Sequence record: PZ179880.1
Length of the DNA stretch: 64,000 nt
From: a phage
Strand: one strand, 5' to 3'
Shown here in pieces: positions 44,672 through 48,310 of this stretch; within the stretch, counting starts at the first letter, position 1, and each line of letters opens with the position of its first letter. The position numbers and the translations under genes are program-made. The notes under the pieces are model-generated. The model searched no databases. It worked only from the letters and a program-made list of their open reading frames with translations, and had not been told where the DNA came from.

Positions 44672-45235
44672 TTATTTACCTAGTTTAGTTATTATAGCTT
44701 CGGCAGCAGCTTTTAGTTTAGATGCGGTGTTAATACGATTTTTAATTTCAGTATACGCATCGCCAAGAACGTCAAGGCTATCAGAATAAACACTTACACT
44801 ATTGCGTTCGCTATTTGAAATAGAACCTTTAGTTTTACGATCAAAATCGGTGTACACGTCTTGAAGATCACGGGCTGCCTTCTTTGCATCATCCAATGCA
44901 TCAAGAGCTTTATTCAAAGCATTAACATATTTTTTAGTGTCAAACATATTCTTAGAAATTTTAACAGGTGCACGTTCAGGAGTAGCTAAGGCAGATTTAG
45001 GAACCTGAGCGCCTGATGCTAATTTCTTAGAAATTTTGAAAAATGCTTTATTGAATTTATTTTCTTGACTCATCGTAAAAGAACTATTATCAATGTTATA
45101 CATTTCAATAGCTTTAGCTTTCCACTTAAGAAAATCGCCACGGTCTTTTGGGTCCAATTGGAAGAATACTTTAGTAAGATCTGCTTCAGATGGTAATTTT
45201 GCTGCTTCGGTTAAAAATTCGGCATAGGTTTTCAT
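44672..45235 (-). CDS. Internal head protein with capsid-targeting leader
   Basis: 187 aa; N-terminus MKTYAEFLTEAAKL. Confidence 0.65.
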   Translation of the reverse strand: MKTYAEFLTEAAKLPSEADLTKVFFQLDPKDRGDFLKWKAKAIEMYNIDNSSFTMSQENKFNKAFFKISKKLASGAQVPKSALATPERAPVKISKNMFDTKKYVNALNKALDALDDAKKAARDLQDVYTDFDRKTKGSISNSERNSVSVYSDSLDVLGDAYTEIKNRINTASKLKAAAEAIITKLGK

Positions 45236-45325
45236 TTAAAATCCTTGAAATAATTTATCGGTTGGTTATTAATTATTTATTACTTTGTTATTATCCGTAA
45301 CAGCATTCTCTATGTGATTCAAACT

Positions 45326-45352
45326 AAAAAGCCCCAACCTTTCGGTCGGGGC
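45326..45352 (-). terminator. Intrinsic terminator (9 bp stem, then U-run on the minus-strand RNA)
   Basis: Plus-strand AAAAA-GCCCCAACC-TTTC-GGTCGGGGC; minus transcript reads hairpin followed by UUUUU. Confidence 0.55.
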
Positions 45353-45356
45353 TAAG

Positions 45357-45660
45357 CCTTGCGGCAACCTTGTCGGGGTTCCACCTGCTAAGGCAAGTGT
45401 TTGTACGAAACGCCGGGATTCGAACCCGGTTATTAAGTAGTTGACGCTACTCAATATTTTTAAAAGGCCATATCTCGACCATATCCGAACGTTCCGTCAA
45501 AAACGCTACTCGGCTTACGGCAAAGATATTTCCTCGAATCGATAATTCGGTGCGCCGTTTCTGCTGTGATAGTAAAGAGCCAGAACACAGTAAAACTGTG
45601 GGAGGAAACTATACTCCAGGGAACATCAGTCCGACGACTTACCGGTAGCGACCCGGTTTC
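45357..45660 (-). ncRNA. Candidate stable RNA region (position analogous to T4 species 1/2 RNAs) with a tRNA-like T-arm motif
   Basis: ~300 nt without a credible ORF; CCGGG-ATTCGAA-CCCGG at 45413-45429; terminated by the hairpin at 45326-45352. Confidence 0.35.
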
Positions 45661-46011
45661 TTAATATTCTTTTAAAGAATCAATATATTCACGGCGTTTA
45701 CGCCACAAATCAATTGCTTCATACGCGGATTCAGCATTTCGAATTAGCCGGCATTTATGTAAAGACTTATGATTTTGATATTGTGTAGATAACGGAATTG
45801 TATCTAAAAGGTCTTTACGATCAAAATATTCGTAACCATCTAAACCAAATGAACGATTTTTGAGAAATTGCCAATGACCATATTCGTTTTCGACATAAAC
45901 ATAATCTGCATGCTGATAAAGCAAATTAATTACACGTTCAGAAATAACAGTATCATTATGATTAAAATAGAATGTTAAATCATGAACTACTAAATAAACA
46001 TTACCTTTCAT
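45661..46011 (-). CDS. Hypothetical protein
   Basis: 116 aa ORF between tRNA-Arg and the noncoding RNA region. Confidence 0.5.
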   Translation of the reverse strand: MKGNVYLVVHDLTFYFNHNDTVISERVINLLYQHADYVYVENEYGHWQFLKNRSFGLDGYEYFDRKDLLDTIPLSTQYQNHKSLHKCRLIRNAESAYEAIDLWRKRREYIDSLKEY

Positions 46012-46029: not shown

Positions 46030-46105
46030 TGGTCGAGGCAGTAGGGATCGAACCTACGACCTAGGACTTAGAAGGTCCTTGCTCTTCCTTCTGAGCTATG
46101 CCCCG
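46030..46105 (-). tRNA. tRNA-Arg (anticodon TCT), CCA encoded
   Basis: Hand-folded cloverleaf: acceptor CGGGGCA/TGCCTCG, anticodon loop CTTCTAA, T-loop TTCGATC. Confidence 0.85.
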
Positions 46106-46109
46106 TAAT

Positions 46110-46184
46110 TGGGTGACCGATGGGAGTCGAACCCATGACTACGAGAATCACAATCTCGAGTTCTACCAACTGAACTACGGCCAC
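46110..46184 (-). tRNA. tRNA-His (anticodon GTG) candidate
   Basis: Acceptor GTGGCCG/CGGTCAC, D-stem GTTC/GAAC, anticodon loop TTGTGAT; no G at -1, so His identity is tentative. Confidence 0.65.
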
Positions 46185-46298
46185 ATTAATACCTACTCCA
46201 ACAATCAAGATGTCTTCACACGAAATTAAGAGAAGAGTGATCAGTTCAACCCCTATAATCGCGTCAAGTAGGTATTAATGTGACAGTTGTCACAAATT
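46185..46298 (-). ncRNA. Structured spacer inside the tRNA cluster (candidate small RNA or processing element)
   Basis: Flanking inverted repeat TAATACCTACT / AGTAGGTATTA and palindrome TGTGACAGTTGTCACA; no ORF. Confidence 0.3.
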
Positions 46299-46374
46299 TG
46301 GCGGACGTGATAGGATTCGAACCTATAACCAATCGCTTAACAGGCGATCGCTCTGCCATTGAGCTACACATCCA
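46299..46374 (-). tRNA. tRNA-Asn (anticodon GTT), CCA encoded
   Basis: Acceptor GGATGTG/CACGTCC, anticodon loop CTGTTAA, T-loop TTCGAAT. Confidence 0.8.
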
Positions 46375-46378
46375 AATT

Positions 46379-46465
46379 GGTGGGGAGTGGTGGAGTCGAA
46401 CCACCCGAGTCGCAATGACAATGGATTTACAGTCCACACCGCTACCTCTACGGGATAACTCCCCC
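46379..46465 (-). tRNA. tRNA-Tyr (anticodon GTA), type II with long variable arm
   Basis: 87 nt; acceptor GGGGAGT/ACTCCCC, anticodon loop CTGTAAA, CCA encoded. Confidence 0.8.
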
Positions 46466-46475
46466 AAATTAATTT

Positions 46476-46550
46476 GGTGGCCCTGGGTGGAATTGAACCA
46501 CCATCTGGCGATTATGAGTCGCTTGCTTGAACCTTCCAGCTACAGGGCCT
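46476..46550 (-). tRNA. tRNA with CAT anticodon (Ile2-type by T4 position, or Met)
   Basis: Acceptor GGCCCTG/CAGGGCC, anticodon loop CTCATAA; 1 nt from tRNA-Thr (dimeric precursor). Confidence 0.8.
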
Positions 46551-46551
46551 T

Positions 46552-46627
46552 GGTGCTGATTGACGGAATCGAACCGCCGACCTTCTCATTACAAGTGAGT
46601 TGCTCTACCTACTGAGCTAAATCAGCA
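46552..46627 (-). tRNA. tRNA-Thr (anticodon TGT)
   Basis: Acceptor GCTGATT/AATCAGC, anticodon loop CTTGTAA, T-loop TTCGATT. Confidence 0.85.
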
Positions 46628-46632
46628 AAACT

Positions 46633-46722
46633 GGCGGAGGCGATAGGATTTGAACCTATGAGTCGCCGGAGCGACTGCCGGTTTTCAAGACCGGTGCATT
46701 AAACCACTCCGCCACGCCTCCA
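46633..46722 (-). tRNA. tRNA-Ser (anticodon TGA), type II
   Basis: 90 nt; acceptor GGAGGCG/CGCCTCC, anticodon loop CTTGAAA, long variable arm. Confidence 0.85.
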
Positions 46723-46724
46723 GT

Positions 46725-46798
46725 CTCCGTGGCAGGATTTGAACCTACGACATTCTGCTCCCAAAGCAGACGCTCTACCAAACTGAGCTACACGGAGT
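46725..46798 (-). tRNA. tRNA-Pro (anticodon TGG), CCA not encoded
   Basis: Acceptor CTCCGTG/CACGGAG, anticodon loop TTTGGGA; 2 nt from tRNA-Ser (dimeric precursor). Confidence 0.85.
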
Positions 46799-46807
46799 AA
46801 ATTAAAT

Positions 46808-46882
<75 letters not shown>

Positions 46883-46887
46883 AATTT

Positions 46888-46974
46888 GGTGCGAGAAGTG
46901 GGACTCGAACCCACAAGGAAATCATTCCGCAGCATTTTAAGTGCTGTGCCTTTACCAATTTGGCCATTCTCGCG
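46888..46974 (-). tRNA. tRNA-Leu (anticodon TAA), type II
   Basis: 87 nt; acceptor GCGAGAA/TTCTCGC, anticodon loop CTTAAAA. Confidence 0.85.
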
Positions 46975-46975
46975 C

Positions 46976-47048
46976 TGGGAATAAAGGACTCGAACCTTTG
47001 CATCCTGGAATCAAAATCCAGTGCCTTACCAACTTGGCTAATTCCCAA
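46976..47048 (-). tRNA. tRNA-Gln (anticodon TTG), CCA not encoded
   Basis: Acceptor TGGGAAT/ATTCCCA, anticodon loop TTTTGAT; 1 nt from tRNA-Leu (dimeric precursor). Confidence 0.85.
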
Positions 47049-48076: not shown

Positions 48077-48310
48077 TTATTTTTTACGAAAAATTGATTT
48101 ATTTTCTGCTGCCCATTTTTCAATAACTGCAGCAGGACCAGTAACAACAATTTTATCACCGTAATCTTCTGCGGCGAGTTGACCGAAATTATCTAATGCA
48201 TCACGAAGAACTCCATGAGGCATTTCACCCATTTTATCTTTCTTGCCAGTGTAAATAAACTCAACTTTTACATCAGCAGTTTCAGCAATAAATTCTTGGT
48301 AAGTTTTCAT
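48077..48310 (-). CDS. Internal head protein with capsid-targeting leader, at the ipI locus
   Basis: 77 aa; N-terminus MKTYQEFIAE is the T4 capsid-targeting consensus; early promoter upstream. Confidence 0.7.
   Translation of the reverse strand: MKTYQEFIAETADVKVEFIYTGKKDKMGEMPHGVLRDALDNFGQLAAEDYGDKIVVTGPAAVIEKWAAENKSIFRKK

What the first reader, a model, noticed from the sequence alone, without database searches (positions are those of the whole stretch)
45357..45660. 300 nt noncoding stretch with a tRNA-like T-arm, ending at a terminator
No credible ORF lies between the 116 aa gene and the internal-protein gene at 44672-45235. The region contains a perfect T-arm-like motif (CCGGG-ATTCGAA-CCCGG at 45413-45429) and ends at a hairpin plus U-run (45326-45352). 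In T4 two stable RNAs of unknown function (species 1 and 2) lie next to tRNA-Arg; this may be their counterpart or a different structured RNA.
Basis: partly seen in the sequence, partly recalled or inferred. Interest (0 to 1): 0.45.

Follow-up and report, generated by a model that had tools for sequence, protein, structure and literature searches.

The report
T4 species 1/2 small RNA genes
The 300-nt "noncoding stretch" is this phage's copy of the two long-known but still function-less stable RNAs of phage T4 (rnaD and rnaC), so the locus is already known; comparing 26 relatives shows that rnaC is a tRNA-shaped RNA whose two loops are built to pair with each other.

Summary
Window 45664..45325 (minus strand) is the orthologue of the phage T4 rnaD (species 2 RNA) – rnaC (species 1 RNA) – terminator block. 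Against T4, rnaC is 138/139 identical, rnaD 79% (conserved ends, replaced centre) and the trailer plus terminator 95%. The "T-arm" at 45413-45429 is the T arm of rnaC. Rfam has no family for either RNA, so nothing is hit, but comparative structure is strong. Across 26 rnaC homologues from at least seven named Straboviridae genera, 97.7% of cells pair and 31 of 51 pairs show compensatory changes. rnaC is a tRNA-like four-way junction with four parts:
- a 7-bp acceptor stem with an invariant tandem U·U;
- a long arm;
- a 10-bp hairpin;
- a T arm.

The long-arm loop (UUGACG) and the hairpin loop (CGUCAA) are exact complements in all 26 sequences. Both change together in Marfavirus (UUGGCG/CGCCAA), which indicates a kissing-loop contact; I found no mention of this in the searchable literature. 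rnaD is a 5' hairpin plus a long rod with a hypervariable tip. The papers I could read (to 2025) state that the function of both RNAs is unknown. Verdict: already known locus, ordinary member, modest interest.

The parts
45549..45664 (-). rnaD (species 2 RNA) homologue, about 116 nt. The conserved core begins at 45660, directly after the TAA stop of the 116-aa ORF.
   Evidence: Aligns to T4 rnaD (L001:2498-2616) at 79% overall: the 5' 45 nt and 3' 30 nt are near-identical and the centre is replaced. The consensus fold has 23 pairs, 97.4% of cells paired, and 5 pairs with compensatory change.
45641..45657 (-). rnaD 5' hairpin P1 (ACCGG-GUCGCUA-CCGGU; 5-bp stem, invariant 7-nt loop).
   Evidence: A-U changes to G-C at the closing pair in L017 and L018. 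The terminator scan picks up its + strand complement.
45543..45548 (-). 6-nt spacer GAAUUA between rnaD and rnaC, the same kind of spacer that separates tRNAs in the array.
   Evidence: In other genera a tRNA 3' end followed by AAUUA or AACAA precedes rnaC.
45404..45542 (-). rnaC (species 1 RNA) homologue, 139 nt, a tRNA-like four-way junction.
   Evidence: 138/139 identical to T4 rnaC. Covariance model R1 scores 169.7 bits, E = 1e-43. In 26 homologues, 97.7% of cells pair and 31 of 51 pairs show compensatory change; slid controls pair about 40%.
45465..45534 (-). rnaC long arm: about 25 bp with internal loops and a 3-nt GUA bulge, occupying the place of the D and anticodon arms.
   Evidence: 19 of its 22 variable-stem pairs (helices 3 and 4) show compensatory changes. 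A second sequence class in Klebsiella, Edwardsiella and Citrobacter phages keeps the same helix-bulge-helix-loop layout.
45495..45500 (-). Kissing loop 1, UUGACG, at the apex of the long arm.
   Evidence: Exact complement of loop 2 in 26 of 26 sequences. Marfavirus has UUGGCG paired with CGCCAA.
45431..45456 (-). rnaC 10-bp hairpin carrying kissing loop 2 (CGUCAA at 45446..45441).
   Evidence: 9 of 10 stem pairs covary while the loop is invariant.
   Evidence: G-C changes to U-A or A-U at the middle pair in 14 of 26 sequences. The loop is non-canonical (UGCAUGC, UGCAUUC) in three lineages.
45406..45412 (-). 3' strand of the rnaC acceptor-like stem (CGUUUCG), pairing with 45541..45535 (CGAUUCG). 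It contains an invariant tandem U·U and is followed by UA.
   Evidence: A-U changes to G-C at the third pair in 16 of 26 sequences, and the other pairs are invariant.
45354..45403 (-). Conserved 3' trailer (CAAACACUUGCCUUAGCAGGUGGAACCCCGACAAGGUU plus a small variable hairpin).
   Evidence: Nearly invariant in 14 distinct variants. It is also present where rnaC is absent (IME08 type) and where both RNAs are absent (VR26).
45325..45353 (-). Intrinsic terminator (AGCCCCGACC-GAAA-GGUUGGGGCU followed by UUUUU).

Best explanation
Shown: the interval is the orthologue of the phage T4 rnaD-rnaC block. These are two non-coding RNAs encoded at the distal end of the phage tRNA operon, on the tRNA strand, and the block ends at the operon's intrinsic terminator.

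Shown: rnaC is a tRNA-shaped RNA. It has a 7-bp acceptor-like stem with an invariant tandem U·U, stacked next to a 5-bp T arm. A long bulged arm of about 25 bp and a 10-bp hairpin take the place of the D and anticodon arms. The two apical hexaloops are perfectly complementary and covary.

Shown: rnaD is a 5' hairpin followed by a long rod. The base of the rod is invariant and its tip is hypervariable.

Inferred, from the architecture and from classical T4 work recalled from memory: both RNAs are cut out of the polycistronic tRNA transcript by the tRNA-processing machinery. RNase P would recognise the acceptor/T minihelix of rnaC and create its 5' end, which also releases the 3' side of rnaD. 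Exonucleases or RNase E would do the trimming. The tight fold, including the loop-loop contact, would make rnaC nuclease-resistant, so it accumulates as a stable RNA late in infection.

Inferred, about 0.3: the RNAs act in trans as accessory, host-dependent factors. rnaC would be a tRNA mimic that occupies or titrates a tRNA-binding host or defence factor, and the variable tip of rnaD would be the host-specific surface. They would not act as adaptors in translation.
For: Identity:
- Homology and synteny with annotated T4 rnaD and rnaC.
- 810 phage records carry the block.
- The published T4 RNAC Northern probe template oligo (PMC9697503, read) is identical to the first 58 nt of the window's rnaC. 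That paper detects RNAC by Northern blot and classes RNAC and RNAD as late RNAs.

Structure:
- rnaC: 97.7% of cells paired, 31 of 51 pairs compensatory, 0 of 500 shuffles as good, slid controls about 40%.
- Kissing helix: 100% complementary in 26 of 26 sequences, with one double change. Duplex energy is -5.5 kcal/mol, and -7.6 for the Marfavirus variant.
- rnaD: 97.4% of cells paired, 5 compensatory pairs.

Handled like a tRNA gene:
- In Karamvirus, Moonvirus and Winklervirus phages and in Erwinia phage COW86c, rnaC sits inside the tRNA array, flanked directly by tRNA genes with tRNA-type spacers: between tRNA-Trp and tRNA-Gly in most, just upstream of tRNA-Trp in Winklervirus.
- Gene finders sometimes call part of it a tRNA.

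Accessory, host-dependent role:
- rnaC and rnaD occur independently of each other.
- Neither motif is found in 185,579 bacterial species genomes.
- A single convergent SNP in rnaD arose in 3 of 3 lines of a T4-like phage adapting to E. coli ECOR34 (PMC12685909).
Against: - No expression, end-mapping or processing data exist for this phage. The RNase P step rests on resemblance and on my memory of 1970s-80s T4 work that I could not retrieve.
- The 3' end has no encoded CCA (…CGUUUCG-UA-CAAA). The T loop is non-canonical in three lineages. So faithful mimicry of the tRNA elbow is not universally required.
- The kissing interaction rests on a single independent compensatory event; otherwise both loops are invariant.
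- In this window a 116-aa ORF separates tRNA-Arg from rnaD, so the rnaD 5' end cannot arise as in T4, where it lies 1 nt after tRNA-Arg.
- The decoy function has no direct support. Reviews state the roles are unknown (PMC3014915). From memory, T4 deletions of the whole tRNA region grow on laboratory hosts.
Confidence: 0.85

Rival explanations
1. The stretch encodes small proteins, as many GenBank records imply by annotating 'hypothetical protein' across it.
For: Short ORFs exist: 61 aa (TTG start), 42 aa (GTG start) and three of 32-34 aa. Several phage records annotate hypothetical proteins over the homologous DNA.
Against: - Substitutions are paired and compensatory across helices.
- Homologues differ by 1-2-nt indels inside the would-be ORFs.
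- An 11-codon AUG ORF inside rnaC is not conserved in length or frame (PG7, L008 and class-2 arms).
- T4 produces stable RNAs from this DNA.
Confidence: 0.02
2. The RNAs are decayed tRNA genes or processing by-products with no function of their own. They would be retained only because they lie in the tRNA operon or help its maturation as punctuation.
For: rnaC keeps only the acceptor and T half of a tRNA and sits in tRNA arrays. rnaC or rnaD can be missing without loss of the neighbours. From memory, T4 tRNA-region deletions are viable.
Against: - A 33-nt core of the long arm and both hexaloops are invariant across genera, while the surrounding stems turn over by compensatory change. That pattern indicates purifying selection on a folded, sequence-specific molecule.
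- An adaptive convergent SNP maps to rnaD.
Confidence: 0.1
3. The region works in cis. It would be a structured 3' end, attenuator or stability element that sets termination or read-through from the tRNA operon into the downstream 187-aa gene.
For: - The trailer plus terminator is an independent, nearly invariant module, found even without rnaC or rnaD.
- The terminator's 3' strand GGUUGGGG is invariant while its 5' strand varies. An invariant upstream CCCCGAC could pair with that 3' strand instead (my inspection).
- In relatives, a TATAAATA late-promoter motif follows the terminator.
Against: This could explain 45325-45403 only. It does not explain rnaC, which occurs in mid-array far from any terminator, nor the accumulation of discrete stable RNAs in T4. 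No covariation test of the alternative pairing was possible because both partners are invariant.
Confidence: 0.1
4. rnaC is a functional adaptor-type RNA: a real tRNA, a tmRNA or a Y-RNA-like RNA.
For: It has a canonical T arm next to a 7-bp acceptor stem. ARAGORN calls a 95-nt 'tRNA-Met' inside the PG7 homologue.
Against: - ARAGORN finds no tRNA or tmRNA here.
- Rfam tRNA, tmRNA and YrlA models give no hit at E <= 10 in 45357-45660.
- There is no D arm, no 7-nt anticodon loop, no encoded CCA and no tag ORF.
- The acceptor stem has a tandem U·U, and the T loop has been lost in some lineages.
Confidence: 0.03

Closest known systems
Phage T4 rnaC (species 1 RNA, 139 nt)
   Same: 138/139 nt identical. 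Same strand and same place at the end of the tRNA operon, same 6-nt spacer after rnaD, same trailer and terminator.
   Different: Nothing material in the RNA itself. The upstream context differs, because a 116-aa ORF lies between tRNA-Arg and rnaD, and downstream a 187-aa ORF replaces the T4 gap before e.8.
Phage T4 rnaD (species 2 RNA, 119 nt)
   Same: The 5' 45 nt (P1 hairpin and GUCGUCGGACUGAUG) and the 3' 30 nt (AUCACAGCAGAAACGGCGCACC) are conserved, and the helices at the base of the rod are the same.
   Different: The central 45 nt or so belong to a different sequence type; at least four types exist among relatives. The 3' end reads CACCG rather than the CACCA of T4. It does not abut tRNA-Arg.
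tRNA and tRNA-like domains (tmRNA TLD, YrlA Y-RNA-like RNAs, viral TLS)
   Same: A 7-bp acceptor stem continuous with a 5-bp T arm carrying GGUUCGAAUCC. It is embedded in tRNA arrays with tRNA-type spacers.
   Different: No D arm, anticodon loop or CCA. It has a tandem U·U in the acceptor, and it gives no hit to Rfam tRNA, tmRNA or YrlA models.
phi29 pRNA, and phage-associated ornate RNAs such as ROOL and GOLLD (comparison from memory)
   Same: ROOL and GOLLD are also often next to tRNA genes and assemble through loop contacts.
   Different: No sequence or Rfam similarity. rnaC is much smaller than ROOL or GOLLD. From memory, T4 packaging needs no RNA. Whether the rnaC loops pair within one molecule or between molecules is untested.

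Membership tests
T4 rnaC (species 1 RNA) | Sequence homology to T4 rnaC over its full length | tested here: met
   138/139 identical. R1 covariance model scores 169.7 bits.
T4 rnaC (species 1 RNA) | Location at the distal end of the tRNA operon, on the tRNA strand, after rnaD and before the terminator | tested here: met
T4 rnaC (species 1 RNA) | Conserved secondary structure shared with homologues | tested here: met
   97.7% of cells paired and 31 compensatory pairs in 26 sequences.
T4 rnaC (species 1 RNA) | Accumulates as a discrete stable RNA of about 140 nt in infected cells | not testable with these tools
   Shown for T4 only (Northern blot, PMC9697503).
T4 rnaD (species 2 RNA) | Sequence homology to T4 rnaD | tested here: met
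   79% overall. Both ends are near-identical and the centre is a different type.
T4 rnaD (species 2 RNA) | Immediately 5' of rnaC, separated by a 6-nt spacer | tested here: met
T4 rnaD (species 2 RNA) | Stable RNA of about 119 nt | not testable with these tools
   No expression data for this phage.
tRNA (RF00005) | Full cloverleaf with D arm and a 7-nt anticodon loop, detectable by tRNA models | tested here: not met
   No ARAGORN call. No RF00005 hit at E <= 10 in 45357-45660.
tRNA (RF00005) | 7-bp acceptor stem contiguous with a 5-bp T stem and a UUCRANY loop | tested here: met
   The loop is not kept in three lineages.
tmRNA | tRNA-like domain plus tag-peptide reading frame and pseudoknots | tested here: not met
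   ARAGORN finds no tmRNA. There are no Rfam tmRNA hits in the interval, and no conserved ORF.
YrlA / Y RNA-like (RF02553) | Match to the family model (tRNA-like module plus Ro-binding stem) | tested here: not met
   YrlA hits at E <= 10 fall only on the true tRNA genes, none in 45357-45660.
phi29-type pRNA | Match to the family model, and intermolecular loop-loop oligomerisation on a packaging motor | tested here: not met
   No Rfam hit. Complementary loops are present, but whether they pair within or between molecules is not testable here.

The most novel reading that the evidence does not exclude
The two invariant, mutually complementary hexaloops of rnaC (UUGACG and CGUCAA) may define a new fold class of phage tRNA mimic. 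There are two versions. In the first, the loops lock the molecule into a compact closed shape, with a sharp kink at the conserved 3-4-nt bulge bringing the long arm back onto the short hairpin. In the second, they link molecules 'hand in hand' into dimers or rings, as in phi29 pRNA or the ROOL and GOLLD cages. In either version the particle would act with the hypervariable rnaD as a host-specific counter-measure against tRNA-directed host factors, which would explain a 50-year-old orphan RNA pair.
Probability: 0.15. Interest if true: 0.7.

Novelty: already known. Interest (0 to 1): 0.3.

Why it matters
As a locus it does not change anything. It is the T4 rnaD/rnaC block, 99% identical for rnaC, and should simply be annotated as such. 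Most deposited T4-like genomes sampled here leave it blank or call it 'hypothetical protein'.

It matters in a limited way because these are among the oldest known phage small RNAs and still have no assigned function or Rfam family. The comparative model gives concrete handles for experiments:
- the tRNA-like four-way junction;
- the invariant tandem U·U;
- the covarying loop-loop contact;
- the modular, independent distribution of rnaC, rnaD and the trailer;
- the hypervariable tip of rnaD.

A recent report that one SNP in rnaD adapts a T4-like phage to a semi-permissive E. coli strain makes such experiments timely.

Tried and rejected
- Rfam in both modes: no family covers the interval. The weak hits (isrK, anti-hemB, Rev39 UTR, sau-63; E 2.8-8.2) are chance.
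- ARAGORN: no tRNA or tmRNA in the interval.
- Degenerate-pattern scans for distant rnaC relatives. IMG/VR gave only one new divergent lineage (L033). The loop and T-arm pattern gave mostly chance hits, all rejected by the covariance model.
- Bacterial genome scans for rnaC and rnaD motifs: 0 hits, so a host-derived origin at the sequence level is not supported.
- Literature. The classical papers (Paddock & Abelson, Broida & Abelson, Apirion lab; terms 'p2Sp1' and 'species 1 RNA') and Miller 2003 are not in the library. No paper assigning a function was found.
- A small peptide inside rnaC (AUGGUCGAG…UAG, 11 codons): not conserved.
- The GUA bulge as a K-turn or loop-E motif: the flanking pairs are G·U and C-G, not tandem G·A. 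Rejected by inspection.
- The rnaD helix CUGAUG/CAUCA(CA)G: not supported by the GAAG variants. It is replaced by the [U/A]GUU / AGC[A/U] helix, which covaries.
- Pairing of the rnaD P1 loop (GUCGCUA) with rnaC UAGCG: only 5 nt, and not kept in phages lacking rnaD. Dropped.
- My hand-typed dot-bracket evaluation was mis-registered, and I do not use its energy.

Full report
**Context.** The window is a T4-like (Tequatrovirus) genome segment. On the minus strand ARAGORN finds 11 tRNA genes at 47047..46030, in the order Gln, Leu, Gly, Pro, Ser, Thr, Met(CAU), Tyr, Asn, His, Arg. These are followed by a 116-aa ORF (46011..45661), the flagged interval, a terminator, and a 187-aa ORF (45235..44672).

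**Observation.**
- The motif CCGGGATTCGAACCCGG is at 45413-45429.
- The T-loop pattern GGTTCRANYCC occurs 11 times in the window, 10 in tRNAs and once here, against 0.24 expected by chance.
- The terminator scan reports a 10-bp stem with GAAA loop at 45353..45330, followed by TTTTT.
- Only short TTG/GTG ORFs overlap the interval.
- The 346-nt stretch folds with z = -4.76 relative to shuffles.

**Identity.**
- blastn against 50,697 phage records finds 810 records with a match.
- T4 (AF158101.6 70827-71168) aligns to window 45661..45323 at 91% identity, and the features under the match are 'rnaC | rnaD'.
- The annotated T4 locus reads tRNA-Arg, 1 nt, rnaD ('small, stable RNA; species 2 RNA', 119 nt), 6 nt, rnaC ('species 1 RNA', 139 nt), then a terminator.
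- Pairwise, rnaC is 138/139 identical, rnaD is 79% (98 of 124 aligned columns; the 5' 45 nt or so and the 3' 30 nt or so are near-identical and the centre is different), and trailer plus terminator are 75/79 identical.
- Window coordinates: rnaD 45664..45549 (conserved core from 45660), spacer 45548..45543, rnaC 45542..45404, trailer 45403..45354, terminator 45353..45325.

Rfam 15 contains no model for these RNAs, and nothing credible is hit in either mode. So 'no Rfam hit' is uninformative here.

[quoted passage not shown] A 2022 dual-omics study classes both as late RNAs 'of yet unknown functions' and detects RNAC by Northern blot (PMC9697503). Its probe template oligo is identical to the first 58 nt of the window's rnaC. 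[quoted passage not shown] I could not retrieve the 1970s-80s primary papers or Miller et al. 2003. What I say about RNase P and RNase E processing of the 'p2Sp1' precursor, and about the viability of tRNA-region deletions, is from memory.

**rnaC structure.**
- I collected homologues by pattern scans of IMG/VR and by blastn with divergent members. I built covariance model R1 and aligned 26 distinct sequences to it. They come from seven named genera (Tequatrovirus, Karamvirus, Moonvirus, Kanagawavirus, Marfavirus, Winklervirus, Dhakavirus-like) plus further unclassified Klebsiella, Erwinia and Citrobacter phages and several unclassified IMG/VR contigs.
- RNAalifold on 16 sequences, before any model fitting, gave a four-way junction. 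It consists of an acceptor-like stem (CGAUUCG/CGUUUCG, 7 positions with a central tandem U·U), a long arm, a 9-nt A/U-rich linker, a 10-bp hairpin, one nucleotide, and a 5-bp T arm running directly into the acceptor 3' strand, followed by UA.
- On the 26-sequence alignment, 97.7% of cells form standard pairs and 31 of 51 pairs show changes on both sides. No shuffle out of 500 reaches these values, and sliding the partners by 1-3 columns drops pairing to about 40%. That alignment was fitted to the model and so leans towards it. The unfitted MAFFT alignment had already given 12 compensatory pairs.
- The tandem U·U and the flanking C-G and G-C pairs are invariant. The third acceptor pair switches between A-U and G-C, and the middle T-stem pair among G-C, U-A and A-U.

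**Loop-loop contact.**
- The apical loop of the long arm reads UUGACG (45500..45495) and the loop of the 10-bp hairpin reads CGUCAA (45446..45441). They are exact reverse complements.
- Both are invariant in 24 sequences, even though the stems beneath them turn over. This includes a second class of long arm (Klebsiella, Edwardsiella and Citrobacter phages) that shares almost no sequence with the T4 class. That class keeps the layout of a 4-bp helix, a 3-4-nt 5' bulge, a 5-6-bp helix and a hexaloop.
- In the two Marfavirus sequences the loops read UUGGCG and CGCCAA, a double change that keeps all six pairs.
- Nearest-neighbour duplex energies are -5.5 kcal/mol for the common pair and -7.6 for the Marfavirus pair. 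The half-changed intermediates give -4.9 (with a G·U pair) and -0.4, so a path through G·U is plausible.
- This is one independent event, so the evidence is suggestive rather than statistical. Perfect complementarity of two hexaloops by chance is about 1 in 4,096 (my estimate).
- Helix lengths allow an intramolecular contact if the arm kinks at the conserved bulge: about 19 bp lie below it, against 6 + 6 + 10 stacked bp coming back. Intermolecular pairing is equally allowed. This is inference.
- The T loop is canonical in most sequences (UUCGAAU, UUCAAAU, UUCGAGU) but reads UGCAUGC or UGCAUUC in three lineages. A bona fide tRNA elbow is therefore not universally required.

**rnaC behaves as a tRNA-array gene.** In Karamvirus and Moonvirus phages and in Erwinia phage COW86c it lies between tRNA-Trp and tRNA-Gly, with 5-8-nt spacers and no rnaD. 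In Winklervirus Kc304 it lies just upstream of tRNA-Trp, which is followed by tRNA-Gly. The PG7 record and ARAGORN call its 3' two-thirds a 95-nt 'tRNA-Met', and another record labels it 'tRNA-OTHER'. Conversely, IME08-type phages keep rnaD and the trailer but lack rnaC precisely. VR26 keeps only the trailer and terminator. rnaC, rnaD and the trailer are thus separable modules. Neither the rnaC 3' half nor the rnaD 5' motif occurs in 185,579 bacterial and archaeal species genomes.

**rnaD structure.** Seventeen distinct sequences give the following picture:
- P1 hairpin (A/G)CCGG-GUCGCUA-CCGG(U/C), with A-U changing to G-C.
- An invariant closing helix, GUCGUCG with CGGCG(C)AC.
- A 4-bp helix, [U/A]GUU with AGC[A/U], with six U-A to A-U exchanges.
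- A 7-bp helix (UGAAUAAG with CUUAUCA and variants), with three covarying pairs.

Overall 97.4% of cells pair, against 28-47% when slid. The apical 45 nt or so fall into at least four unrelated sequence types, each forming its own hairpins. The window carries the 'GGAGUAUAG…CACAGUUUUACUGUG' type shared with P922 and L027. In T4 the 3' end reads …CACCA; here it reads …CACCG.

**Trailer.** The 3' trailer CAAACACUUGCC(U)UAGCAGGUGGAACCCCGACAAGGUU is almost invariant in 14 variants. It is followed by a small variable hairpin and the terminator. The terminator's 3' strand GGUUGGGG is invariant while its 5' strand varies (CCCCGACC, CCCCUUCC, CCCCAGCC, CCCUUCC). An invariant upstream CCCCGAC could pair with the same strand. 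This hints at an alternative pairing, but I could not test it.

**Mechanism.**
- Shown: homology, synteny, the folds, the modular distribution and the restriction to phages.
- Inferred: the acceptor/T minihelix makes rnaC a substrate for RNase P and the tRNA 3'-end machinery, which excises it and frees the rnaD 3' side. The compact fold confers stability.
- Inferred with low confidence (about 0.3): the RNAs act in trans as accessory, host-dependent factors, with rnaC as a tRNA mimic titrating a tRNA-binding host or defence factor. The dispensable, modular distribution, the invariant recognition-like features (tandem U·U, hexaloops, 33-nt core), the hypervariable rnaD tip and the adaptive rnaD SNP all point that way.
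- Against: no CCA is encoded, the T loop is lost in some lineages, and there is no direct evidence of any partner.

**Rivals.** The alternatives are small proteins, decayed tRNA by-products, a purely cis-acting terminator or attenuator, and a real tRNA, tmRNA or Y RNA. They are weighed in the rival section. None explains the covariation together with the invariant loops as well as the main explanation.

**Flanking genes.**
- The 116-aa ORF is phrog_3355, of unknown function, with no Pfam match. T4 has nothing between tRNA-Arg and rnaD.
- The 187-aa ORF is phrog_2280, 'hypothetical protein' in 165 records. Its N-terminus MKTYAEFLTE resembles MKTYQEFIAE of the 77-aa ORF at 48077-48310, which sits where T4 has ipI. 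This fits a capsid-targeting sequence (my knowledge of T4 internal proteins) but is not proof.

**Verdict.** The added value is a covariation-supported structural model with a probable kissing-loop, and the recognition that this RNA is widespread and mostly unannotated.

Noticed in passing
window 46185-46298 (minus strand), between tRNA-Asn and tRNA-His: The 114-nt spacer is not a tRNA by ARAGORN or Rfam, but it folds into a long stem-closed structure (MFE -39.5 kcal/mol, z = -4.48). It is conserved in 356 phage records (Escherichia, Klebsiella, Enterobacter, Salmonella and others) down to about 76% identity, almost always unannotated, and always just 5' of tRNA-His. Six sequences give 7 compensatory pairs, 3 of them in the closing helix. 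It is a candidate third stable RNA of Tevenvirinae tRNA arrays.
   Followed up: partly
window 45661-46011 (minus strand): A 116-aa ORF (phrog_3355, unknown function, no Pfam match) sits between tRNA-Arg and rnaD, where T4 has a single nucleotide. Its stop codon abuts the conserved rnaD core, so the rnaD 5' end must be generated differently here than in T4.
   Followed up: partly
window 44672-45235 (minus strand): A 187-aa ORF (phrog_2280, 'hypothetical protein' in 165 phage records) starts MKTYAEFLTE, resembling the MKTYQEFIAE start of the internal-protein-like ORF at 48077-48310. It is a possible extra capsid-targeted internal protein, absent from this position in T4.
   Followed up: partly
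window 45354-45403, and L006:1494-1564, L005:1613-1694, L023:3523-3604: The 50-nt trailer before the terminator is nearly invariant and travels independently of rnaC and rnaD. It is present in VR26, which has neither RNA, and lies 500 nt downstream of rnaD in L023. The terminator's 3' strand is invariant while its 5' strand varies, and an upstream CCCCGAC could pair with that 3' strand instead, so an alternative-pairing switch is possible.
   Followed up: partly
window 46475-46549 (minus strand): ARAGORN calls this tRNA-Met(CAU). It occupies the slot after tRNA-Thr where T4's annotated tRNA-Ile lies, and ARAGORN likewise calls the T4 gene Met(CAU). It is probably the AUA-reading tRNA-Ile with a modified CAU anticodon rather than a Met tRNA.
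   Followed up: no
L003:1554-1648 (Enterobacter phage PG7), and H45 (vB_EcoM_G9062): Public records mis-annotate part of the rnaC homologue as a 95-nt 'tRNA-Met' or as 'tRNA-OTHER'. Most of the other phage records sampled leave rnaC and rnaD blank or cover them with 'hypothetical protein' CDSs.
   Followed up: yes
L004:901-1252 (Salmonella phage KM16), L003:1040-1144 (PG7), and downstream of rnaC in L008, L019 and L021: Other long gaps in these tRNA arrays contain further T-arm-like motifs (for example GUGGGUUCAAGUCCCAC in KM16 and GUAGGUUCGAGCCCUA in L008) and GC-rich hairpins that ARAGORN does not call as tRNAs. They may be additional unannotated tRNA-like RNAs.
   Followed up: no
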